A DNA stretch of 64,000 nucleotides from an uncultured Candidatus Saccharibacteria bacterium (GTDB lineage: Bacteria; Patescibacteriota; Minisyncoccia; Phycocordibacterales; UBA9973): positions 140,368 through 204,367 of the forward strand of contig CAZBZO010000001.1 in the NCBI GenBank assembly GCA_964496425.1. Reading direction: 5' to 3'. Below, piece by piece: positions 7,656-44,954 of the stretch. Under the pieces are notes generated by a model that searched no databases, was not told where the DNA came from, and worked only from the letters and a program-made list of their open reading frames with translations. How positions within the stretch are numbered: position 1 is the stretch's first letter; each line of letters starts with the position of its first letter. The position numbers and the translations under genes are program-made.

Positions 7656-7942
7656 TGGGGTGCCTATCGGGGTAATCTTTCCTTACCCAGTAGGTGATTG
7701 TACTCAATCACAGGAACAGTATACCTTTTCAATTCGCATATGCGAATAATGAAAAGCTTTTCGACCTCGGGATATCTCCCTCGACTCGAGTTTCGCCGCC
7801 GCTCAACTCGGTCTGGGCACCAGCTCGTCTATTTTTCCTACTGAAAAAATAAGACTCCGCTGTTTGATTCCCGAACGGAAGCAAAGCAGTTTGCTTCCTT
7901 AGGCACCATATGAAAAACCCGCAAATGCGGGTATTCAATAGG
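7656..7942 (-). repeat. tRNA-His-associated small element (family member 1)
   Basis: Begins after a terminator hairpin 3' of tRNA-His with a copy of the tRNA-His 5' end (catatGGTGCCTAagg). Ends in a duplicate of the tRNA 3' end (cccgataggcaccCCA). Carries conserved blocks shared with 13189-13392 and 44738-44881 and the hairpin ggaagcaAAGCAGTTtgcttcc. Confidence 0.5.
7913..7932 (-). terminator. Terminator hairpin directly 3' of tRNA-His (acccgcatttgcgggttttt on the minus strand)
   Basis: GC hairpin plus T-run. Confidence 0.5.
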
Positions 7943-29144: not shown

Positions 29145-30956
29145 TTACTGACAATACTCCCAGAAATCCTTTTTATAATTATTTGAGCCAGCAATACCTG
29201 TTCCTATATACCCTCTACTGCTAATACTGAATCCGATAGCATTATTACGAGCAGCCCCAGCAAAGTCAGCTTTCTGAGTCCAAGTGTTTGTGGCAGGATC
29301 ATATTCCCAGAAATCTTTTTTATATCCACTCCCTGTATTCCCTGTTCCTACATATCCTTTGCTACCAATAGCGAAGCCCACAGCGCCTTCTCGGGCTACT
29401 CCTCCAAAGTCAGCTTTCTGAGTCCAAGTGTTTGTGGCAGGATCATATTCCCAGAAATCTTTCTTTTTGCCCACATCATCTTCTCCCGTTCCCAAATATC
29501 CTTTTCCATTTATTGCGAAACCAGTCGCCCCACTGCGGCCAGTTCCTGGAAAATCAGCTTTCTGGGTCCAGGTGTCTGTCCCTGGATCATATTCCCAGAA
29601 AAAATTGTTAATTGGGCCATTCGTGAGGTTATGTCCAGTTCCAATATATACTTTAGAATTAAGAGTGAAAGCCACACTTTGATGCCAGCCAACAACATTA
29701 GCGCTCGATTTTTGAGTCCAGGCACTAAGTGTTGGATTATATTCCCACATATCATCAAAAGGGCCAGTGGTCCAGTTTATGCCGGTTCCGACATATCCTT
29801 TGTCCCCAATATTGAAACCAACAGCTGCCATGCGAGACGTTCCAGTGAGATCTGCTTTCTGAGTCCAAGTATTTACTATTTGATCGTATTCCCAAAAATC
29901 TTTATAGAACTTATTGTTTCCACTCGTATATGCATACCCTGTTCCTACATATCCTTTATTATTAATTGAAAAACCCACTGCTTCATGGCGACCAACGCCT
30001 CCAAAATCCGCCTTCTGTGTCCAGGTATTCGATGTACAGGCCGGCGGCGCCACGTTGACTGTCGTTGTTGCAAATGTCGTATTCGCCGTTCCGATTGCTG
30101 TCAATTTATACAGCATTGTTTGAGTGAGTGGCAGCGTCGTAAACGATCCTTGCGCTATAGTCGGCGTGATTGAGCCAACACCTTGATCGATGGATCCAGC
30201 TTCGCAATTGGTCGTCTTCCAATTAAGTGTCGTTGTTTGTCCATACGCGATTATTTGTGGAGTAGCATTAAAAAAATTGATCGTGCATTGTGGTGGCGGA
30301 ACCACGGTAATAATCTTGATGGCTGAGGTAGTGTTAGTAGCGTTTGAAGCAGTCAGTGTAAAAACTGTCGTGAGTGTAAGATTACCCGATGATATGGAAC
30401 CGTTCTGAGGCACAGTACCAATAGCGGGCGAAATAGAGATGGTTGTGCAGTTGGTCGTACTCCAAGAGAGCGTAGAGGCAGTGTTGTAAGGAATAGATGG
30501 TGGTGTCGCATTAAAGGAGTTGATCATGCAAGCTGAAGGAGTACCCACAGTCACTGTGGCAGTTGCAGTAGCAGTATTAGTATCTCCGACTGCAGTGAGA
30601 ACATATGTTTTAGTCGAAGTAAGTGGGCCAGTTCCAACTGAGCCAGTCGGAGAAGGTGAGGAAATTAAAACCGTAGAAGCTTGGATAACGGCATGTGACA
30701 TGCAACCTGTCGTCGACCATTTAAGGTTAGAGGCTCCACCTGAAGCAACAGCAGCTGGTGTAGCTTTGAAATAAAGAATAGAACATGGAGCGAAACCCTC
30801 CTCGCCAGAACCGGAAGAATCTTCATCGGAAGATGTAGTAGAGCCAGGATCAACTTCGCCACCTATCACCCGCTCGGCTGAAGCAGAAATTGGGCTTATA
30901 AAAACAAAGGTTATTAAAAAGGTTACGAAAAAGCTCCCCAAAAATATATTTTTCAT
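29145..30956 (-). CDS. Secreted protein: about 4 N-terminal Ig-like repeats followed by about 7 Kelch-like beta-propeller repeats
   Basis: Signal peptide. Repeated …KDFWEYDP.TNTWTQKADF.G..R..A.GF.I..KGY.GTG… blades; upstream repeats about 85 aa long ending in …TTNC…. Confidence 0.6.
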   Translation of the reverse strand: MKNIFLGSFFVTFLITFVFISPISASAERVIGGEVDPGSTTSSDEDSSGSGEEGFAPCSILYFKATPAAVASGGASNLKWSTTGCMSHAVIQASTVLISSPSPTGSVGTGPLTSTKTYVLTAVGDTNTATATATVTVGTPSACMINSFNATPPSIPYNTASTLSWSTTNCTTISISPAIGTVPQNGSISSGNLTLTTVFTLTASNATNTTSAIKIITVVPPPQCTINFFNATPQIIAYGQTTTLNWKTTNCEAGSIDQGVGSITPTIAQGSFTTLPLTQTMLYKLTAIGTANTTFATTTVNVAPPACTSNTWTQKADFGGVGRHEAVGFSINNKGYVGTGYAYTSGNNKFYKDFWEYDQIVNTWTQKADLTGTSRMAAVGFNIGDKGYVGTGINWTTGPFDDMWEYNPTLSAWTQKSSANVVGWHQSVAFTLNSKVYIGTGHNLTNGPINNFFWEYDPGTDTWTQKADFPGTGRSGATGFAINGKGYLGTGEDDVGKKKDFWEYDPATNTWTQKADFGGVAREGAVGFAIGSKGYVGTGNTGSGYKKDFWEYDPATNTWTQKADFAGAARNNAIGFSISSRGYIGTGIAGSNNYKKDFWEYCQ

Positions 30957-38499: not shown

Positions 38500-40209
38500 T
38501 TACTCCATCAGCATCCGCGCAATGCGGATTTCGTCAAAGGTAAAGGCGCTGCCGAGTTTTTCATACACGGGCGTGAGCTTATCAGTACCAGCTGCCTTAA
38601 ATGCCCGGTGGATTTCTGCCAGACCTTTTGAGATTTTGGGAGTCAAAAGCCGTAAAAGCTCGGTGCGATCGATCGCTCCTTGTTTAAAAAGTTTTTCAAT
38701 ATGATCAAATATCGTCCGGCTCTGCACCCCCCGCTCACGAGCGATGAGGGCAACCGTCATGCCTTCTTTCCATAACCCAAGCGTCACATCGTAAGTCGAA
38801 AGTTTTTTGCCAGTACGAGCTCTTTCACTTTTTTTGCTTTTTACGGCTTGCAGTGTGCCACCACAGGCGCGAACAAAGTTGTCATACATTTTTTGTAAAT
38901 CCGTAGCAGGTAATTTTGAAAATGCGAGCCGAGCTTCTTCAGAGCGAGCACGAAAGCTGGCATCTTCTTCCAAGATTGCTGGATGCACAGCCAATGCTTT
39001 CTGATTGATCCCGAGAAGATAGAGTCCGGAAAGTCGCCTAACACGGGAGAGTGCTACGTAGCCCTGGCCGTACTCAAATACCTGCGAGAGATCCATTACC
39101 GCTGCATCCAAGCTCATGCCTTGGCTTTTGTGGACCGTGATCGCCCAGGCCAAGCGTAGCGGGATCTGGCTGATGCTTGCCCGTACTACACCGTTTTCCT
39201 GCACACTCCACTCCATCGACTCAGCGATGACTTTGTGGCCACTTTTAGTGCGAATGATCGGGGCACCGGTATCGGTATCAAAATCCTCCACGGTACCGAG
39301 CGTGCCGTTTGCAAAATGCATAAGTGGATTATTTTTGGTAAACATCACGCTTGCGCCGATCTTAAGCGTTAAAGTTTCTGGAGAAAGACACCCTCGAGCA
39401 AGAGTGGCCACCAGCGCGTCCGGACCACGCGAAGACATTTCATATGTTTTTTGTCGACTGGTGAGCTTGCTGAGCGCATTGGTATTTAAACTATCAACAT
39501 CAGCATTGTGCGAAAAAAGACGAGTAATATCGGGGGGTGCTTGGGTGGGAGCGATCTGGCGCGACAGAATGTGTTCCATATGCACCTCGCCAATCTCACC
39601 CGCGCGCAAGGCTTGGAGCACGGAGAGAAAATGTTTGTCATCTTGGCGATATTGCTCGGTGAGATAGCACACAATCGGCCGAAGTGCTGCCCACTCTGGC
39701 GACTCATAGGCAAATATCGCCACCTGTTCGTCATCAAACATAGTTTGATCTTCGCTTCCATAATTGATTTTCTGAATTGGCGGCAGTTGGAAGAAATCGC
39801 CGACGAGTATCACTTGCATGCCGCCAAACGGCGCATCGTTTTGCCGTATTTCCTTTAGCACTTGATCAATCATCGAAAGCATCGATGGTGCGAGCATAGA
39901 AACTTCATCAATAATAAGAACCTGAGTGCGACTGACTCGCTTTGCTACGTATTCACTGCTCGCAATCTTGTCGAGATCGTATTTTGTAAGTGTCGTCTTA
40001 ATACCAATACCGCTCCAGGAATGAATTGTCATACCGCCGATGTGGGTCGCGGCAATACCAGTAGAGGCGGTAATAGCTGGCTCAATACTATGCTCGCGCA
40101 AATATGCCACATACGCGTTCACGGTATGCGACTTGCCAGCCCCTGGCTCCCCCGTCAGAAATACGTTGGCTCCTGTTTTTAAAATAGTAAGCGCTTGGGC
40201 TTGAGTCAT
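38500..40209 (-). CDS. PIF1/RecD-like ATP-dependent DNA helicase with a C-terminal helix-turn-helix-like domain
   Basis: Walker A GEPGAGKS; QVLIIDEVSM; helicase C-terminal blocks. Confidence 0.75.
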   Translation of the reverse strand: MTQAQALTILKTGANVFLTGEPGAGKSHTVNAYVAYLREHSIEPAITASTGIAATHIGGMTIHSWSGIGIKTTLTKYDLDKIASSEYVAKRVSRTQVLIIDEVSMLAPSMLSMIDQVLKEIRQNDAPFGGMQVILVGDFFQLPPIQKINYGSEDQTMFDDEQVAIFAYESPEWAALRPIVCYLTEQYRQDDKHFLSVLQALRAGEIGEVHMEHILSRQIAPTQAPPDITRLFSHNADVDSLNTNALSKLTSRQKTYEMSSRGPDALVATLARGCLSPETLTLKIGASVMFTKNNPLMHFANGTLGTVEDFDTDTGAPIIRTKSGHKVIAESMEWSVQENGVVRASISQIPLRLAWAITVHKSQGMSLDAAVMDLSQVFEYGQGYVALSRVRRLSGLYLLGINQKALAVHPAILEEDASFRARSEEARLAFSKLPATDLQKMYDNFVRACGGTLQAVKSKKSERARTGKKLSTYDVTLGLWKEGMTVALIARERGVQSRTIFDHIEKLFKQGAIDRTELLRLLTPKISKGLAEIHRAFKAAGTDKLTPVYEKLGSAFTFDEIRIARMLME

Positions 40210-40228
40210 ATAAAAGTTAAGAGTTGTT

Positions 40229-40393
40229 AATTACGAATTACGAGTTGACTACAGGATAAAATTTTCGAAATGAGGACTCGGAGTAATTTCACTGAAGGGA
40301 TAATTATTACTGACTAGCCGAACCGCAATGAGAAAATTTTATCCTGCATCTAATACACAAAAAAGCGCAGCTCCCAATTCGTAATTTGTAATT
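40229..40393. repeat. Small element with 19-nt terminal inverted repeats AATTACGAATTACGAGTTG / CAATTCGTAATTTGTAATT enclosing a 15-bp-stem palindrome
   Basis: Terminal inverted repeats at 40229-40247 and 40375-40393; inner caggataaaattttc…gaaaattttatcctg. Related AATTACGAG repeats at 50413-50446. Confidence 0.4.
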
Positions 40394-40394
40394 T

Positions 40395-40667
40395 CTAACT
40401 TTTAACTGAATCTGTTGCCCAGGCTTTGAGTTCTTCGTAGTCGGCTTCGCCGCAGATGAATTTTTTGTTTTCAGTATTGTAAAAAAATGGCACACCTCCA
40501 CAAAGCTCACCGTTGTCGATCGCTTCGAGTTTTTTCATATTTTCTTCGTTGTGCCAGACTTCTAGTTTTTCAATAGCAATACCCGCTTCCGCTTCGAGGC
40601 GGTCAGTGAGTTTGTGCATTTCGATGCAATGTGGGCACTCAGTGCCGTAAAAATTAAGTAGTGCCAT
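40395..40667 (-). CDS. Glutaredoxin-like/thioredoxin-fold protein (CPHC active site)
   Basis: FYGTECPHC motif; 90 aa. Confidence 0.7.
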   Translation of the reverse strand: MALLNFYGTECPHCIEMHKLTDRLEAEAGIAIEKLEVWHNEENMKKLEAIDNGELCGGVPFFYNTENKKFICGEADYEELKAWATDSVKS

Positions 40668-40692
40668 AGAGCAAGTAGTAAATAGTTAGTAG

Positions 40693-40851
40693 TAAAGGAT
40701 TAATGATGTATTTCTAATTCTACTCCTTCGTTATGATTATGATCATCAATCACAGAAGCAGCAATACTCTGGTGACCAATCGTATGCATAAAAAGCGCTC
40801 CGAAAACAGCGCCGACCGCAAGGAGGAGTACTGTTTGTTTCCAAGAAATAT
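40693..40851 (-). CDS. Possible small membrane protein (52 aa) with a His-rich tail
   Basis: Unannotated short ORF MQDISWKQTVLLLAVGAVFGALFMHTIGHQ…HNHNEGVELEIHH between rpsT and the grx-like gene. Confidence 0.25.
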
Positions 40852-41028
40852 CCTGCATGTGCACAAGTATACCGCGTCTTCAAAAAGTAGCCAAGACAAA
40901 CTACCTGCCTAGAGGGCAAGCCGGGCTACAAACATTACAAACATGGTTATAAGTATAAGAGTAATCATACCCTTATACTGACGCACCAATAGCCATAATA
41001 TGACAAAATTGTGCAATCAACAGCAGCG

Positions 41029-41117
41029 ACAAAGTCCGCCGATTTTGCCGTCTTTCGCAAGTCGACGGACTGAGAAGGAGCAAATTTCGAGTACGAAATT
41101 ATGCGACGGCAAAATCG
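41029..41117. promoter_or_regulatory. Structured region 3' of rpsT: 17-bp long-range inverted repeat (ccgccgattttgccgtc / gacggcaaaatcggcgg) with an alternative competing helix
   Basis: Mutually exclusive pairings (agtccgccg / cggcggact-like) resemble an attenuator or leader architecture. Confidence 0.3.
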
Positions 41118-41133
41118 GCGGGCGGAGGAGCCT

Positions 41134-41388
41134 TTATTTTACGATACGGGCCAAACGGGCTTTTTTTCGAGAAGCAGTATTTTGCTTCAAAACCTTGGAT
41201 TTTGTACCTTTGTCGATAGCACTTTGAGCAGCACCCAAAAGCTTGAGAGCTTCGTCTTTTTTACCGTCTTTGACGAGGCGCTCGATCTTCTTGATCATTT
41301 CACGATACGCGCGCTTGCGGCTTTCGTTATAAACTTGTTTTTTGACGCTCCCGCGGAGGGCCTTTTTGGCTGATGAGGTGATTGGCAT
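41134..41388 (-). CDS. rpsT: 30S ribosomal protein S20
   Basis: Typical S20 sequence (…SAKKALR…RNKAYRS…-like basic helical protein, 84 aa). Confidence 0.9.
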   Translation of the reverse strand: MPITSSAKKALRGSVKKQVYNESRKRAYREMIKKIERLVKDGKKDEALKLLGAAQSAIDKGTKSKVLKQNTASRKKARLARIVK

Positions 41389-41529
41389 GGCTGATATGTA
41401 TATTAAATATAATGTATAAAGGATTATCTATAAGTACGATAACGTAGGGCATAGTACCACAGAGATTGAAAAACCACAAATTATAGAGCGTACTTGATAC
41501 TTACTACTTTATACATCATACTTACTTCC

Positions 41530-42108
41530 ATGATTGGAAAAATATCCGGGCTTGTTGCCCACCTCACAGACAAATACGCCATCATTGAAGCTTCAGGGGT
41601 AGGATATAAAGTGTCGCTCACAGCAGATACTTTGGCTTCGCTCTCTCTTGGTGAGGTGGGCTCGCTTTGGACCTATCTTGCCGTGCGCGAAGATGCCTTA
41701 GATCTCTACGGCTTCTCGACACTTGAAGAGCATGATTTTTTTACCATGCTGATTTCCGTCTCTGGCATCGGACCAAAAGGTGCGCTCGGTATTCTCGCTG
41801 TCGCGAGCACCGATACGCTCAAACGTGCGATCGGCACTGGCGACACTGCCTACCTCACCAAGGTCTCAGGCATCGGTAAAAAAACAGCCGAGAAAATAGT
41901 GCTAGAACTTCGCGACAAACTCCATGCCCATGCTGAAACCAAAGAATCTCACGGCACGCTTCGCGCGGAGAGCGATGTCGTCCTTGCTCTTCAATCTTTG
42001 GGCTACTCGCAAAACGAAGCTCGCGATGCGCTTAAAGAAGTGCCTGTAACAATCGAGGGCACAAATGCCCGAATCAAAGAGGCACTCAAAATCTTGGGTA
42101 GTAAATAG
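41530..42108 (+). CDS. ruvA: Holliday junction DNA helicase subunit RuvA
   Basis: MIGKISG start, SVSGIGPK and VSGIGKKTAEKI helix-hairpin-helix motifs. Confidence 0.85.
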   Translation: MIGKISGLVAHLTDKYAIIEASGVGYKVSLTADTLASLSLGEVGSLWTYLAVREDALDLYGFSTLEEHDFFTMLISVSGIGPKGALGILAVASTDTLKRAIGTGDTAYLTKVSGIGKKTAEKIVLELRDKLHAHAETKESHGTLRAESDVVLALQSLGYSQNEARDALKEVPVTIEGTNARIKEALKILGSK

Positions 42109-42133
42109 AAAATAGTTAGTAGGAAATTTTATT

Positions 42134-43087
42134 ATGCCCGAACTTCCTGAAGTCCAAACAACAGTCGATGGTCTTAAAAAAACCGTGATTGGTCTTACCT
42201 TTCGCGATGTCTGGACTGATTTGGCTATTGGAGAATTTACTTCCCCTCACCTTTCACAATCACTTAAAGATAAAAAATTCTTTGCGAAGTTTAAAAAAGA
42301 AATTATTGGCAAAAAGATCATCGATGCCAAGCGTCGAGCAAAAAATATCCTCATCTATCTCTCGGGCGGTAAAGTCATTCTCATTCATATGAAAATGACC
42401 GGGCATTTAATGTTTGGCGAGTACAGCAAACATGAAATTACGAATGGTAAATTACGAATTACGAATTGGGCACCAAGCAAGAAAGAGAAAAATCAGGCAC
42501 TGTGGGATCCCTACAATAAATTTCTACACGTAGTATTCACGCTCAGCAACGGCAAGCATCTCGTCCTTTCTGATGCGCGCAAGTTCGCCAAGGTAACATT
42601 GCTTGATGTGAGTGACATGGATACAAGCATTCATCTTGGACATTTTGGGCCTGAGCCGCTAGAAAAGAGTTTCACACTTCCGCAATTCATAGCTCGTCTC
42701 AAGAAAAAACCAAACGGTAAAATAAAAGAAGTCTTGATGGACCAATCTATCATCGCTGGCATTGGTAATATTTATTCAGATGAAATGCTGTGGCTTACAG
42801 GCATTCATCCAGAAGAGCGGGTGAAAAATATTCCTGGTGCGAAACTCCGCGTGCTGTATACAAACATGAAAGCAGTACTCAAAAAAGGTATTGATTTCGG
42901 CGGCGACTCCACAAGCGACTATCGCGACATAGACGGTAAACGCGGAAAGTTTAGCGCGCACCACAATGCCTATCAACGAACAGATAAAAGCTGTGGAAAG
43001 CCAAGATGTAAAGGTGTTATACTAAGGAAGATCGTCGGCGGCCGGAGCGCACATTACTGCTCGGTACATCAACGACTATTAAAATAA
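42134..43087 (+). CDS. mutM: Formamidopyrimidine-DNA glycosylase (Fpg/MutM) with a C-terminal zinc finger; carries an insertion of about 25 aa
   Basis: MPELPEVQTT N-terminus, H2TH region, C-terminal C-x2-C…C-x2-C. Confidence 0.85.
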   Translation: MPELPEVQTTVDGLKKTVIGLTFRDVWTDLAIGEFTSPHLSQSLKDKKFFAKFKKEIIGKKIIDAKRRAKNILIYLSGGKVILIHMKMTGHLMFGEYSKHEITNGKLRITNWAPSKKEKNQALWDPYNKFLHVVFTLSNGKHLVLSDARKFAKVTLLDVSDMDTSIHLGHFGPEPLEKSFTLPQFIARLKKKPNGKIKEVLMDQSIIAGIGNIYSDEMLWLTGIHPEERVKNIPGAKLRVLYTNMKAVLKKGIDFGGDSTSDYRDIDGKRGKFSAHHNAYQRTDKSCGKPRCKGVILRKIVGGRSAHYCSVHQRLLK

Positions 43088-43115
43088 TTTACTACTAATT
43101 TAATTTACTATTTTT

Positions 43116-43331
43116 ATGGCAGCACACGCAGGTGGAGGACATGGTGGTGGAGGCGGACTTGGAAGCGGCTGTATGTTCGCGCTTTCAGTCCTAGGCATTT
43201 TGGCAGTTTTATGGATTATTTGGTATTACTCTGGCGGCCCAGCACATTATGAAGCCACCCATGGTCCTTTCATAAAACCGCCCGCTCCACTTGATAGCGG
43301 AGAGGTCTACGGGCCTGATTCTAAATATTAG
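43116..43331 (+). CDS. Small Gly-rich membrane protein, hypothetical
   Basis: 71-aa ORF with one TM segment. Confidence 0.35.
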   Translation: MAAHAGGGHGGGGGLGSGCMFALSVLGILAVLWIIWYYSGGPAHYEATHGPFIKPPAPLDSGEVYGPDSKY

Positions 43332-43828
43332 AGCCCAAGGAGCCGAAAGAGCGCTATCCCTGCCGCTACCGAAACATTGAGCGACTCTTTTCCAATATTA
43401 TTTTTCTCACGATTACGCAGGAGTTTCCCTTGCATGGGGATTTCTATTATTTCATCACAGTGTTTCAAAATACTTCCCGGAATGCCATGCACTTCTTCAC
43501 CAAGTATGAGCGCACAACTTTTTTTGGGTTTGGCTTTTTTGTAGTCTACTGATTTTTTATCTTGCTCAAGAGCGTAGATCTTTATACCTCCTTTTTTTAA
43601 TTTTGAAATAAGTCTCACGGTTGAATGCACACTCTCCCACGCGACGGTCTTCTCCGCCCCAAGCGCAGTTTTGGCAATATCTTTTCGTGGCCGACCATAC
43701 TGATCAAGCGGCGAAGGCGTGTAGCCAGAGAGATATATTTTAGATACTCCCGCAGCATCTGCTGAGCGAAAAATCGCGCCGACATTGTACGTACTTCTAA
43801 TATTGTGAAGAATAAGAATAGAAATCAT
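43328..43828 (-). CDS. SpoU/TrmH-family RNA 2'-O-methyltransferase (TrmL-like)
   Basis: SPOUT motifs (…NVGAIFRSADAAG…, …LILGEEVHGI…, C-terminal …SLNVSVAAGIALF…). Confidence 0.8.
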   Translation of the reverse strand: MISILILHNIRSTYNVGAIFRSADAAGVSKIYLSGYTPSPLDQYGRPRKDIAKTALGAEKTVAWESVHSTVRLISKLKKGGIKIYALEQDKKSVDYKKAKPKKSCALILGEEVHGIPGSILKHCDEIIEIPMQGKLLRNREKNNIGKESLNVSVAAGIALFRLLGL

Positions 43829-43831
43829 AGA

Positions 43832-44686
43832 TTATGATATGAATGAAAGTACTAACACTGCACTTAAAGTGAGGATGATACCGATCCATTGATATTTTTT
43901 GAGACGTTCATGGTTGAATACAACACCTAACATCACAGCGAGAATAATATACGATTCTGAAATCGTAATGGCGAGAGAAATCGGAATAAGTATGACAGCA
44001 AAGCTGTAGGCAAGCCAGGCGCAATTATCAAAAAGTGCTACTGCCACACTCTCTGCGGGATGTTTTCGTATGTGGTGAAAAAAACTCCACCAGCTTCGTG
44101 AGTAGGTAAAATATAAAATACAGCATACAGCGATCACTGTATGTACAAACCAGATAGTAGCCACAGGTCCCACGCTGCGACTGGCGAGGCCAGTCGTAAA
44201 ATTGACGAACGCCATAACAACGGTAGCCATAAGGGCAAGGATGGCACCATGCTCCCAAAAATGATGCGCTTTTATTTTACCGCTATACGCCACCAAGAGA
44301 ATTCCAAGGAAAACAAGTGCAATGAGGCCGCCTTGATACCACGTCAAATGTTCTCCAAGTAGAGTAATACCGAGAAGCACCGTAAGGGGAAGCTCAAATG
44401 ACAAAATCGGCTCGATCACCGTAAGCTTACCAATCTGGAGCGCCTTAAATTCTAAAAGTGCTACGACGAGCGTGAGAGCTGCAACAAGAAAAAGAAATGG
44501 CCAGAAAAATACCATCAATGGGATTTCTCCAAACACAAACGGTAAAAGCACGATGCTACCAGCGCCAGTGATACAAAAGAGACTCGGCCAGATGCCAAAG
44601 TCACGAGACGTCCGCTGGATAAAAAAATCTCCAAAGCCCCAAGAGACAAGGGCAACGAGAGCGTACATGATACCGAAAGAATTCAT
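43832..44686 (-). CDS. EamA/DMT-family transporter
   Basis: 10-TM duplicated EamA-domain topology. Confidence 0.7.
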   Translation of the reverse strand: MNSFGIMYALVALVSWGFGDFFIQRTSRDFGIWPSLFCITGAGSIVLLPFVFGEIPLMVFFWPFLFLVAALTLVVALLEFKALQIGKLTVIEPILSFELPLTVLLGITLLGEHLTWYQGGLIALVFLGILLVAYSGKIKAHHFWEHGAILALMATVVMAFVNFTTGLASRSVGPVATIWFVHTVIAVCCILYFTYSRSWWSFFHHIRKHPAESVAVALFDNCAWLAYSFAVILIPISLAITISESYIILAVMLGVVFNHERLKKYQWIGIILTLSAVLVLSFIS

Positions 44687-44737
44687 GGCGATATTGTAGC
44701 ACCCAAAACTTTATTGCGCTTCAATTTATACTTATAC

Positions 44738-44881
44738 TGGTCCGCCCGGTAGGAATCTCGACTACCGTCGCGGGTGAGTTTCGCTCGGACTAAAGTCCGA
44801 CAACGAAACTCCTTTCGATTTCTGCACGCGAGTGAAGCAGTTCACTCGTTCGAGGCGCCAAAATCCGCTTCGTGTATTTTG
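44738..44881 (-). repeat. tRNA-Lys-associated small element (family member 3)
   Basis: Shares the tcgact…gagtttcgc…ctcgg blocks and the hairpin gcgagtgAAGCAGTTcactcg. Ends in a duplicate of the tRNA-Lys 3' end including CCA (gattcctaccgggcggaCCA). Confidence 0.5.
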
Positions 44882-44954
44882 TCCGCCCGGTAGGAATCGA
44901 ACCTACGACCCTCTCCTTAAAAGGGAGCTGCTCTACCAACTGAGCTACGGGCGG
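44882..44954 (-). tRNA. tRNA-Lys (anticodon TTT)
   Basis: Manual fold: acceptor CCGCCCG/CGGGCGG, D-arm GCTC-AGTTGGTA-GAGC, anticodon loop CTTTTAA (G27-A43 mismatch), T-arm GTAGG-TTCGATT-CCTAC. Confidence 0.8.

What the first reader, a model, noticed from the sequence alone, without database searches (positions are those of the whole stretch)
40229..40393. 165-bp MITE-like element with 19-nt terminal inverted repeats in the helicase 5' leader
It carries perfect or near-perfect terminal inverted repeats, AATTACGAATTACGAGTTG at 40229-40247 and CAATTCGTAATTTGTAATT at 40375-40393. These flank an internal 15-bp-stem palindrome (caggataaaattttc…gaaaattttatcctg). The interior contains a GAAGGGA(T/A)AATT block reminiscent of the GAAGGGAATTTT block of the 16667 and 50461 elements. 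It sits between the grx-like gene and the PIF1-like helicase gene, with no coding capacity.
Basis: seen in the sequence. Interest (0 to 1): 0.5.

Follow-up and report, generated by a model that had tools for sequence, protein, structure and literature searches.

The report
Heptamer-armed RNA hairpin between two genes
The reported element is real, but it is not a clear-cut jumping MITE: it is a conserved RNA hairpin between a glutaredoxin-like gene and a helicase gene, wrapped in two inverted arrays of a 7-base repeat, a design that recurs next to stop codons in many bacterial phyla and around the genes found in ribosomal-RNA intervening sequences.

Summary
The arms are 17/19 complementary and extend to 33 nt. 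They enclose a perfect 15-bp stem, and the region folds far better than shuffles (z -7.6). The arms are period-7 arrays of AATTACG-type units. Two more copies of this 34-nt module lie in the window, at 42435 inside fpg and at 50411.

The MITE reading is only partly supported. I found no target-site duplication, no second full copy and no transposase partner.

A relative with 80%-identical grx carries the same hairpin in the same grx-helicase spacer. Ten of 33 pairs are compensatory, and the gene-sense strand folds better. That relative has only one heptamer array, at the grx stop codon. A closer relative (92%) lacks the array and most of the hairpin. The "TIR" is therefore a lineage-specific inverted duplication of an array.

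The element does not score as a member of the 16667/50461 hairpin family (5-6 bits against 91-107).

AATTACG-armed hairpins occur in many phyla, abut stop codons, and bracket PF05635 (23S-rRNA intervening-sequence protein) genes. Of 18 such genes not selected for heptamers, 13 have inverted heptamer-array arms.

Best reading: a cis-acting intercistronic RNA stem, like an ORF-less intervening sequence. RNase III processing is inferred, not shown.

The parts
40215..40247 (.). Left heptamer array, next to the helicase start.
   Evidence: Inverted repeat I2. TRF period 7. Direct-repeat family D9 (82-85% to 42435-42468 and 50411-50444). There is no counterpart in the orthologous spacers L333 and L334, which share a different helicase-proximal segment, so this arm is derived in the window lineage.
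40252..40266 (-). One strand of the perfect 15-bp closing stem of the inner hairpin (3' strand when read on the gene-sense minus strand).
   Evidence: In the ortholog L334 the stem has a different sequence but stays fully paired (compensatory pairs).
40271..40281 (-). 3' strand of the conserved second stem (CCGAGUCCUCA on the minus strand).
   Evidence: Paired with 40318-40327 in the consensus structure of T and L334. The pairing includes a U-G wobble conserved in both and one G-C to U-A compensation.
40282..40317 (-). Variable apical region. It holds the GAAGGGATAATT box (40294-40305 on the plus strand).
   Evidence: Not conserved in the L334 ortholog. The box matches elements A and B exactly as a pattern, but there is no covariance-model or alignment support for homology.
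40318..40327 (-). 5' strand of the conserved second stem (UGCGGUUCGG on the minus strand).
40332..40346 (-). Other strand of the perfect 15-bp closing stem.
40347..40374 (.). Asymmetric 28-nt spacer between the inner hairpin and the right arm. It holds an A6 run and GGGAGC (minus-strand reading).
   Evidence: The AATYGGGAGC junction after the array is shared with L334.
40375..40407 (.). Right heptamer array, on the grx stop-codon side. On the minus strand it reads AGTTAAA AGTTAGA AATTACA AATTACG AATTG. It contains the grx stop codon and the last four codons.
   Evidence: It is orthologous to the five perfect AATTACG units just after the grx stop in L334. The grx C-terminal SVKS tail encoded here is absent from homologs.
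40395..40667 (-). Upstream gene: a 90-aa CPHC thioredoxin-fold (grx-like) protein.
   Evidence: ORF. No Pfam hit. Homologs carry source names such as thiol-disulfide isomerase, thioredoxin or glutaredoxin family.
38500..40209 (-). Downstream gene: PIF1-like helicase with a C-terminal HTH_40 domain.
   Evidence: Pfam PF05970 at 6.7e-34 and PF14493.
42435..42468 (+). Solo copy of the 34-nt heptamer module inside the fpg coding sequence. It encodes EITNGKLRITNW.
   Evidence: It lies in a length-variable loop. The window protein is 7 aa (21 nt, three heptamers) longer than P0122 and P0124 (both 310 aa); other homologs range from 306 to 329 aa.
50411..50444 (+). Solo copy of the 34-nt module, 16 nt from hairpin element B and 24 nt from the polA start codon.
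   Evidence: No inverted partner was detected.

Best explanation
The element is a composite intercistronic structure on the grx-to-helicase transcript, not a free-standing MITE. It has three parts.

1. A hairpin of about 95 nt (40252-40346, read on the minus strand, which is the gene-sense strand). It has a long closing stem, an internal loop and a conserved second stem. It is inherited at this locus.
2. An AATTACG-type heptamer array that begins at the grx stop codon. This array is also inherited.
3. A second, inverted heptamer array next to the helicase start codon. It exists only in the window's lineage. It turns the whole 185-nt spacer into one long foldback: a 33-bp imperfect outer stem plus a 15-bp perfect inner stem, whose base brings the grx stop and the helicase start to within a few nucleotides of each other.

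This architecture matches a widespread class of heptamer-armed stem-loops. These sit directly after stop codons, often fill short operon spacers, and in their gene-bearing form enclose a PF05635/S23p gene. That is the design of the RNase III-excised intervening sequences of 23S rRNA.

Most likely mechanism: the spacer is co-transcribed and folds into a long duplex that punctuates the two cistrons. The duplex would protect the 3' end of the grx message, offer an RNase III-type double-strand cleavage site, and bury the helicase start region.

Shown here: the structure, its orthologous conservation with compensatory changes, the sense-strand preference, gain and loss among relatives, and the class regularities.

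Inferred only: transcription through the element, RNase III cleavage and any effect on helicase expression.
For: Structure: z = -7.57, -64.1 kcal/mol on the minus strand.

Ortholog: L334 (grx 80% identical; grx and helicase adjacent) carries stop codon, then (AATTACG)x5, then a hairpin with a 19-20-bp closing stem, then the helicase.

Consensus structure of T and L334 on the sense strand: 33 pairs, 10 of them compensatory, a conserved U-G wobble, -36.2 kcal/mol. On the antisense strand: 26 pairs, 6 compensatory, -29.0 kcal/mol. Single-sequence folds also favour the sense strand: T -31.5 against -27.5, L334 -55.4 against -45.0.

Gain and loss: L333 (grx 92%) has a 76-nt spacer without the array or most of the hairpin, and that spacer does not fold better than shuffles (z -0.85). 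L333 and L334 share a helicase-proximal segment that the left arm replaces in the window.

Element-encoded gene tail: the grx tail SVKS and its stop codon lie in the right arm and are absent from homologs.

Class evidence:
- 47/120 and 34/120 loci have convergent (AATTACG)n...(CGTAATT)n pairs within 400 nt.
- 44 of 68 hairpin edges lie -20 to +9 nt from a stop codon. Divergent-gene spacers are under-represented, 3/54 against 111/683.
- In another Patescibacterium, such hairpins sit between smpB, tmRNA and infC. One runs from the stop of a 70-aa ORF, read as rpmI from gene order, to 6 nt before the rplT ATG. The Pfam L35 hit for that ORF (20.3 bits) is below the 28.9 cut-off.
- The arms bracket PF05635/TIGR02436 genes in 8 loci.
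- In 18 PF05635 loci not selected for heptamers, 13 are bracketed by inverted arrays of tandem heptamers of varied sequence.
- The Coxiella 23S rRNA intervening sequence has a 28-bp terminal stem, tandem GACAGAT heptamers and RNase III excision (PMC4990558).
Against: - Only two orthologous sequences support the covariation. A DNA palindrome kept complementary by template switching could mimic it.
- On the mRNA strand, four positions of the outer stem are C-A mismatches; they would be G-U on the other strand (direct reading).
- No expression data exist.
- No RNase III gene was looked for beyond ten ORFs.
- The closest relative lacks the element, so it is dispensable.
- No PF05635 gene is in the window or in the 5.5 kb beyond it, and no remnant of one lies inside T.
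- In viral contigs the AATTACG pattern (28 loci) is only 1.5-5 times commoner than permuted heptamer controls (5, 8, 18). Shared heptamer sequence alone is therefore weak evidence of common descent across phyla.
- The position statistics rest on crude ORF calling, and the divergent-spacer deficit is marginal (p = 0.058).
Confidence: 0.5

Rival explanations
1. It is a true MITE: a non-autonomous DNA transposon, bounded by the heptamer TIRs, that inserted as one unit between grx and the helicase and is mobilised in trans by an element with the same ends.
For: Inverted arms that are copies of a dispersed 34-nt module. Contig breaks inside the left arm in two assemblies. Absence in L333. The same arm type around ORF-less and gene-bearing units in many genomes. 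The grx C-terminus and stop codon are supplied by the arm.
Against: L334 has the same interior with one array only, and the window's second arm replaces sequence shared by L333 and L334. No target-site duplication is readable. There is no second copy of the interior. The cargo of the gene-bearing relatives is a four-helix-bundle protein, not a transposase. There is no match in plasmid or phage records.
Confidence: 0.12
2. It is a neutral by-product: heptamer simple-sequence repeats arise by replication slippage, one array was copied in inverted orientation by template switching, and the resulting palindrome has no function.
For: Ten of 26 tandem repeats in the window have period 7. Heptamer SSR excess in bacteria is documented, as are occasional inverted pairs (PMC4692102, PMC4679880). 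Permuted heptamer controls are also found in viral contigs. The element is dispensable in L333. Array length differs between orthologs.
Against: The interior hairpin keeps two stems through 10 compensatory changes and prefers the sense strand. The three direct copies share the same imperfect second unit, which independent slippage would not give. The class shows tight placement at stop codons.
Confidence: 0.2
3. It is simply the transcription terminator of the grx-like gene.
For: It starts at the grx stop codon. The class sits at gene 3' ends and rarely between divergent genes. On the minus strand the outer stem is followed by UUUUAUAU.
Against: The terminator scan finds nothing at the element, although it finds two terminator-like sites elsewhere in the same 1.1-kb region. 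Other hairpins in the window look by eye like A-run, GC-rich stem, T-run terminators (not tested). The stem base here is AU-rich. The U-rich tract contains the helicase start codon, leaving no room for a separate helicase promoter. Equivalent hairpins sit between an apparent rpmI and rplT, a pair known from general knowledge to be co-transcribed in other bacteria.
Confidence: 0.08
4. It is a degenerate member of the three-way-junction hairpin family at 16665-16753, 41036-41121 and 50463-50549 (elements A, C, B) that has lost its internal hairpins.
For: An exact shared GAAGGGAWWWTT box, 3 hits against 0.15 expected. Same orientation relative to flanking genes. The same 34-nt heptamer module lies next to element B. 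Long closing stems with unrelated but complementary sequences occur in all.
Against: The covariance model scores T at 5-6 bits, through the outer stem only, against 91-107 bits for members. Local alignment is no better than shuffles (p 0.08-0.75). The box lies in the apical region that is not conserved in the L334 ortholog. T prefers the minus strand whereas A and B prefer the plus strand.
Confidence: 0.1

Closest known systems
23S rRNA intervening sequences (IVS) and S23p/PF05635 cassettes, e.g. the Coxiella burnetii IVS (PMC4990558)
   Same: Terminal inverted repeats forming a stem of about 28-33 bp. Tandem heptamer repeats in the arms. A selfish or dispensable character and sporadic distribution. 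ORF-less short forms exist in rRNA (own knowledge). Arms identical in type to T's bracket PF05635 genes in 8 loci, and 13 of 18 unselected PF05635 genes have inverted heptamer-array arms.
   Different: T lies in an mRNA spacer, not in helix 25 or 45 of 23S rRNA. None of the PF05635 cassettes examined lies in rRNA either. T has no ORF and no PF05635 remnant. RNase III excision is untested here.
Correia/NEMIS elements of Neisseria (MITEs; own knowledge)
   Same: About 100-160 bp, 26-bp terminal inverted repeats, close to genes, co-transcribed, with the hairpin formed by the repeats cleaved by RNase III. This is the best functional analogy for a TIR hairpin within an mRNA.
   Different: Correia elements occur in hundreds of near-identical copies with a TA target duplication. 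T is single-copy in about 70 kb, has no readable duplication, its arms are heptamer arrays, and one arm is lineage-specific.
REP/BIME elements and REPINs (own knowledge; PMC3116915 appeared in a search list but was not read)
   Same: Intergenic palindromes at gene 3' ends, rare between divergent genes, acting as 3' mRNA stabilisers.
   Different: REPs are 20-40-nt GC-rich palindromes tied to a RAYT transposase. T is AU-rich, far longer, heptamer-based, and no RAYT is seen.
Intergenic heptamer repeat arrays: TAACTGA in Beggiatoaceae, Cyanobacteria and Bacteroidetes (PMC4679880); GGGAATC/GGGGAYT in Xanthomonas and Nostoc (PMC4692102)
   Same: Period-7 arrays, patchy cross-phylum distribution, placement within a few nucleotides of start or stop codons, stop codons in all frames on one strand, and occasional inverted pairs.
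   Different: Those are mostly direct arrays with other unit sequences. AATTACG arrays paired as long hairpin arms, and their link to PF05635 genes, were not found in the searchable literature.
Rickettsia palindromic elements (own knowledge)
   Same: A repeat module that also occurs in frame inside a housekeeping gene (fpg, 42435-42468).
   Different: The fpg copy is a solo 34-nt array in a naturally variable loop, not a whole palindromic element.

Membership tests
MITE (non-autonomous DNA transposon) | Terminal inverted repeats | tested here: met
MITE (non-autonomous DNA transposon) | Target-site duplication flanking the TIRs | tested here: not met
   By direct reading, no direct repeat flanks either the 19-nt or the 33-nt arm definition. 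A TA duplication fits only some of the canonical copies seen in other genomes.
MITE (non-autonomous DNA transposon) | Multiple dispersed copies of the whole unit in the genome | tested here: not met
   Only the 34-nt arm module recurs. The interior has no second copy in the window, in L193, or in about 2.2 Mb of fetched loci. The rest of the 286-kb contig and of the genome could not be read.
MITE (non-autonomous DNA transposon) | An autonomous partner with the same TIRs that encodes a transposase | tested here: not met
   Units with the same arms carry a PF05635 four-helix-bundle gene or an unknown 190-198-aa ORF, not a transposase.
MITE (non-autonomous DNA transposon) | Presence/absence of the whole TIR-bounded unit at orthologous sites | tested here: inconclusive
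   L333 lacks it. L334 has the interior plus one array only. The window has both arrays. The polymorphism does not follow the TIR boundaries.
IVS-type heptamer-armed stem-loop (S23p/PF05635-associated) | Long terminal stem formed by inverted arms | tested here: met
   For comparison, a 28-bp stem in Coxiella (PMC4990558).
IVS-type heptamer-armed stem-loop (S23p/PF05635-associated) | Arms built of tandem heptamers | tested here: met
   TRF period 7 in both arms. The same holds in 13 of 18 PF05635 cassettes and in Coxiella (PMC4990558).
IVS-type heptamer-armed stem-loop (S23p/PF05635-associated) | Encloses a PF05635 gene | tested here: not met
   No ORF and no remnant in T; none in the window. 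ORF-less forms of the class are common.
IVS-type heptamer-armed stem-loop (S23p/PF05635-associated) | Inserted in a 23S rRNA helix | tested here: not met
   T lies between two protein genes. There is no rRNA in the window.
IVS-type heptamer-armed stem-loop (S23p/PF05635-associated) | Excised or cleaved by RNase III | not testable with these tools
   Needs an in vitro cleavage assay or end mapping.
A/B/C three-way-junction hairpin family of this window | Scores with the covariance model built from A, B and C (P1, P2 with GACG loop, P3, GGAG and GAAGGR junctions) | tested here: not met
   5.4-5.9 bits through the outer stem only, against 90.6-107 for members and 31.9 for D in L127.
Intrinsic (Rho-independent) terminator | GC-rich stem followed directly by a U tract | tested here: not met
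   No terminator-like site at the element on either strand, while two are found elsewhere in the scanned 1.1-kb region.
Any Rfam 15 family | Covariance-model match | tested here: not met
   Nothing at gathering score. Only chance-level miRNA and plastid hits at E of 3.5 or more.

The most novel reading that the evidence does not exclude
Heptamer-array-armed stem-loops form one cross-phylum class of RNA-level "cistron punctuation" elements. The class ranges from ORF-less hairpins lodged exactly between a stop codon and the next start codon to cassettes that carry the PF05635/S23p gene, of which the rRNA intervening sequences are the special case already known. On this reading the window's element, together with its one-armed ortholog and an empty site, catches such a stem-loop being assembled in place: an array at the stop codon, then an inverted duplication, then a long stem. 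It was not inserted ready-made.
Probability: 0.25. Interest if true: 0.7.

Novelty: new variant of a known kind. Interest (0 to 1): 0.5.

Why it matters
On its own, the element is a modest non-coding feature of a Patescibacteria chromosome.

Its value lies in the links it exposed:
- The "TIRs" are heptamer arrays of a type found after stop codons in many phyla.
- The same arms enclose the enigmatic S23p/PF05635 genes.
- Most unselected PF05635 genes examined are bracketed by inverted heptamer arrays.

That would tie three poorly understood things together: the excess of heptamer repeats in bacteria, intergenic palindromes, and rRNA intervening sequences. It also suggests direct experiments, namely RNase III cleavage of the stems and binding of S23p to heptamer arrays.

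The three-state orthologous series (empty, one array plus hairpin, two arrays plus hairpin) offers a concrete view of how such foldbacks arise.

Tried and rejected
- **Rfam.** Nothing at gathering score or at a relaxed threshold on T and on B.
- **Covariance model of A/B/C.** It finds no further member in the window, and T fails. It finds nothing in the closer relatives' loci. An attempt to enlarge the model automatically pulled in reverse-strand hits and was dropped.
- **Pairwise alignment of T's interior to A, B and C.** Not significant against shuffles.
- **A right-hand inverted arm for element B.** I thought I saw one by eye; the repeat finder did not confirm it.
- **Promoter scan around T.** No site on either strand within the element.
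- **Target-site duplications.** Looked for by eye, including TA; none was consistent.
- **BLAST of T and of a pure heptamer array against plasmid and phage records.** No match; the array query was probably masked as low complexity.
- **PF05635 remnant inside T.** None.
- **RNase III gene.** Not among ten mid-sized ORFs of the window.
- **Extending the genome beyond the window.** 5.5 kb was gained on one side; the other look-up failed.
- **Single-protein search for PF05635 loci in viral contigs.** Failed; the alignment-based search worked.
- **Literature searches for AATTACG arrays.** Nothing found.
- **Integron attC site.** Considered from the sequence and set aside. The R'/R'' core sites do not fit, and the flanking genes are housekeeping genes.

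Full report
**1. Observation**

The region lies between two minus-strand genes. Upstream is a 90-aa CPHC thioredoxin-fold ("grx-like") ORF at 40395-40667. Downstream is a PIF1-like helicase with an HTH_40 tail at 38500-40209.

- The two 19-nt arms are 17/19 complementary. By direct reading, both mismatches are G opposite T.
- Complementarity extends to 33 nt at 82% (40215-40247 with 40375-40407).
- The inner stem is a perfect 15 bp (40252-40266 with 40332-40346).
- The 211-nt region folds at -64.1 kcal/mol (minus strand) and -61.9 (plus strand), against about -35 for shuffles (z = -7.57).
- The arm motif has 5 matches in the window against 0.02 expected.
- Four independent assemblies that span the region are 100% identical to it. 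Two other assemblies break at 40226/40227, inside the left arm.

There are three corrections. The arms are period-7 tandem arrays. The right arm contains the grx stop codon and the last four codons. The extended left arm ends 5 nt from the helicase ATG.

**2. The arms are a dispersed heptamer module**

A 34-nt module (AGTTAAG AGTTGTT AATTACG AATTACG AGTTG) occurs three times in direct orientation, 82-85% alike: at 40214, at 42435 and at 50411. It occurs once inverted, at 40375-40407.

- The copy at 42435 lies inside the fpg coding sequence, in a length-variable loop. The window protein is 7 aa (21 nt) longer than two close homologs of 310 aa.
- The copy at 50411 lies next to hairpin element B and has no inverted partner.
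- Ten of the 26 tandem repeats in the window have period 7. This fits the published excess of heptamer repeats in bacteria (PMC4692102 and PMC4679880, both citing Mrazek 2007).

**3. Relation to the 16667/50461 elements**

Elements A (16665-16753), B (50463-50549) and a third, C (41036-41121), form a clear structured family. They share a three-way junction, and 15 of 33 pairs are compensatory among the three copies.

A covariance model built from them recovers only these three in the window and one member in a relative (L127, 31.9 bits). The target scores 5-6 bits, and only through its closing stem.

The shared GAAGGGAWWWTT box is unlikely by chance (3 hits against 0.15 expected). However, local alignment of the interior to A, B and C is no better than shuffles, and the box sits in a part of the hairpin that the ortholog does not conserve. 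I therefore do not file the target in that family.

**4. Orthologous spacers**

More distant helicase orthologs (58-62% identity) have other upstream genes and spacers from a 1-nt overlap to 107 nt. The element is therefore not a conserved helicase leader.

Homologs of the grx-like protein gave closer relatives.

| Locus | grx identity | Spacer to next gene | Content |
|---|---|---|---|
| L333 | 92% | 76 nt (helicase) | No array, most of the hairpin missing; folds no better than shuffles |
| L334 | 80% | 188 nt (helicase) | Five perfect AATTACG units just after the stop; hairpin with a 19-20-bp closing stem; ends of its core align with T; no inverted array on the helicase side |
| L337 | 76% | 7 nt (other gene) | grx followed directly by a different gene |
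| L338 | 68% | 1 nt (other gene) | grx followed directly by a different gene |

L333 and L334 share a helicase-proximal segment of about 35 nt. In the window, the left arm replaces this segment.

The grx protein of the window ends in SVKS, encoded by the right arm. Homologs end two or three residues after the conserved WA.

**5. The interior is a sense-strand RNA structure**

The consensus structure of T (minus strand) and L334 (gene-sense strand) has 33 pairs, of which 10 are compensatory. It includes:
- the whole closing stem, whose sequence differs apart from its six innermost pairs;
- a second stem, UGCGGUUCGG with CCGAGUCCUCA (window 40318-40327 with 40271-40281), which has one G-C to U-A exchange and a conserved U-G wobble.

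The energy is -36.2 kcal/mol. The antisense alignment gives 26 pairs, 6 compensatory, and -29.0 kcal/mol. Single-sequence folds agree: T -31.5 against -27.5, and L334 -55.4 against -45.0.

Two sequences are few, and a DNA palindrome corrected by template switching could mimic this. The wobble pairs and the strand asymmetry nevertheless favour an RNA element on the mRNA strand.

**6. The class to which the arms belong**

Hits included Cyanobacteria, Bacteroidota, Acidobacteriota, Chloroflexota, Planctomycetota, the Verrucomicrobia group, Patescibacteria, SR1 and others. A narrower pattern did the same in metagenomes.

*Specificity.* In viral contigs the pattern gave 28 loci against 5, 8 and 18 for three permuted-heptamer controls. 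Heptamer arrays are common in general, and this unit is only moderately special.

*Pairing.* In 47/120 and 34/120 loci, an (AATTACG)n array is followed within 400 nt by (CGTAATT)n. Arms are typically 25-32 nt.

*Position.* With a crude gene call:
- Hairpin-bearing spacers are co-directional (34), convergent (17) and rarely divergent (3). The background is 446, 126 and 111 (p = 0.058 for the divergent deficit).
- 44 of 68 hairpin edges lie -20 to +9 nt from a stop codon. The mode is -2, where T plus AATTACG makes TAA.
- About half of the adjacent start codons are within 20 nt.

*A parallel case.* In another Patescibacterium (L039), such hairpins separate smpB, tmRNA and infC. One runs from the stop of a 70-aa ORF to 6 nt before the rplT ATG. 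I read that ORF as rpmI from gene order; its Pfam L35 hit (20.3 bits) is below the cut-off. The geometry is the same as in the window.

**7. Link to intervening sequences**

- In eight heptamer-selected loci, the inverted AATTACG arms bracket a gene of about 120 aa. Three of these products were scanned and match PF05635 (23S rRNA-intervening sequence protein), and one matches TIGR02436 (four helix bundle protein). The others match a local profile built from them.
- One of these loci, L225, has an arm nearly identical to the window's left arm and abuts an upstream TAA.
- None of the cassettes examined lies in rRNA.
- In a sample of 18 PF05635 genes found without reference to heptamers, 13 are bracketed by inverted arrays of tandem heptamers. 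This is 12 of 16 after collapsing two identical pairs. The unit sequence differs from locus to locus (CAATTGA, AGTTAGG, AGTAATG, AACCTAT, AATTTTG, TAATTCG and others).
- The Coxiella intervening sequence has a 28-bp terminal stem and tandem GACAGAT heptamers next to its S23p ORF, and it is excised by RNase III (PMC4990558).
- I found no paper describing AATTACG arrays or this general association. The searchable library is incomplete.
- The window holds no PF05635 gene, and T holds no remnant of one.

**8. Interpretation**

The element is best described as a composite intercistronic stem-loop with three parts: an inherited sense-strand hairpin, an inherited heptamer array at the grx stop codon, and a lineage-specific inverted copy of the array at the helicase start.

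It resembles an ORF-less intervening-sequence-type foldback. It would be expected to work as those and the Correia elements of Neisseria do (own knowledge), as a long duplex in a co-transcript. Such a duplex protects the upstream 3' end, is a substrate for RNase III, and hides the downstream start. Those last steps are inference.

The MITE reading is weakened by the one-armed ortholog, the lack of a target duplication, the lack of other full copies and the lack of a transposase partner. A plain terminator is unlikely. A neutral slippage product remains a serious rival.

**9. Verdict**

The feature is real. It is a new variant of a known kind, namely intergenic palindromic or intervening-sequence-like stem-loops.

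Interest is moderate for the element itself. It is higher for the class-level link between heptamer arrays, stop-codon-abutting hairpins and PF05635 genes, which needs a proper census.

Noticed in passing
window 16665-16753, 41036-41121, 50463-50549; L127 20311-20392: A family of hairpins of about 87 nt with a three-way junction (long closing stem, P2 with a GACG loop, P3, and conserved GGAG and GAAGGR junction motifs). Fifteen of 33 pairs are compensatory among the three window copies. There is no Rfam match. Each window copy lies 11-12 nt beyond the stop codon of a minus-strand gene, yet A and B fold better on the plus strand. One weaker member lies in a relative.
   Followed up: partly
   Followed up: yes
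window 42435-42468 (inside fpg, 42134-43087): The 34-nt heptamer module sits in frame inside the Fpg coding sequence (EITNGKLRITNW), in a variable loop. The protein is 7 aa (three heptamers) longer than two close homologs of 310 aa. A distant homolog (P0165) has a similar peptide, ISNNKLLISKW.
   Followed up: partly
window 44881-44954 (minus strand): ARAGORN calls a tRNA with anticodon UUA, which would read the UAA stop codon. Rfam scores it as a good tRNA (70 bits). Its 3' part resembles tRNA-Arg(UCU) at 13392-13464, and a third partial copy lies at 44739-44765.
   Followed up: no
window 7773-7894, 13220-13340, 44814-44845: Repeated segments of 30-50 nt (69-84% alike) lie beside several tRNA genes (direct-repeat families D11, D13, D15).
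   Followed up: no
window 40673-40695 and 42099-42127: A shared motif, GTAGTAAATAG...TAGTTAGTAG, itself heptamer-like (AAGTAGT), lies just upstream of the grx start and just upstream of the fpg start.
   Followed up: no
window 29145-30956: A 603-aa ORF contains 144-nt tandem repeats (four or five copies, 65-79% alike).
   Followed up: no
L039 (Patescibacteria MAG H41-bin209_1) 532-630, 1042-1125, 2033-2134: Heptamer-armed hairpins flank the tmRNA gene on both sides. One sits between an apparent rpmI and rplT. A second conserved GC-rich hairpin (GCCTCGCCCGTCCGTAGCCC...) recurs at 15-55 and 1127-1168.
   Followed up: partly
L315-L328 (viral contigs): PF05635 genes are bracketed by inverted arrays of tandem heptamers whose unit differs from locus to locus. 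This suggests a general property of this gene family rather than of one heptamer.
   Followed up: partly
L141, L142, L145, L149, L151 (viral contigs): Related contigs carry a 190-198-aa ORF with no Pfam or NCBIfam match. It is bracketed by inverted heptamer arrays (AATGACG/AATTACG type).
   Followed up: partly
L016 1-400; L076 6270-6640: In an Acidobacteriota MAG and a Lentisphaerales MAG, the AATTACG arrays are embedded in longer tandem units of about 85-122 nt, with variable numbers of heptamers per unit.
   Followed up: no
L337, L338 compared with window 40395-44700: The SpoU, Fpg, RuvA, S20, grx gene order is conserved in relatives, but the gene after grx differs (helicase, methyltransferase or GH3). 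The grx 3' junction is therefore a rearrangement point.
   Followed up: partly
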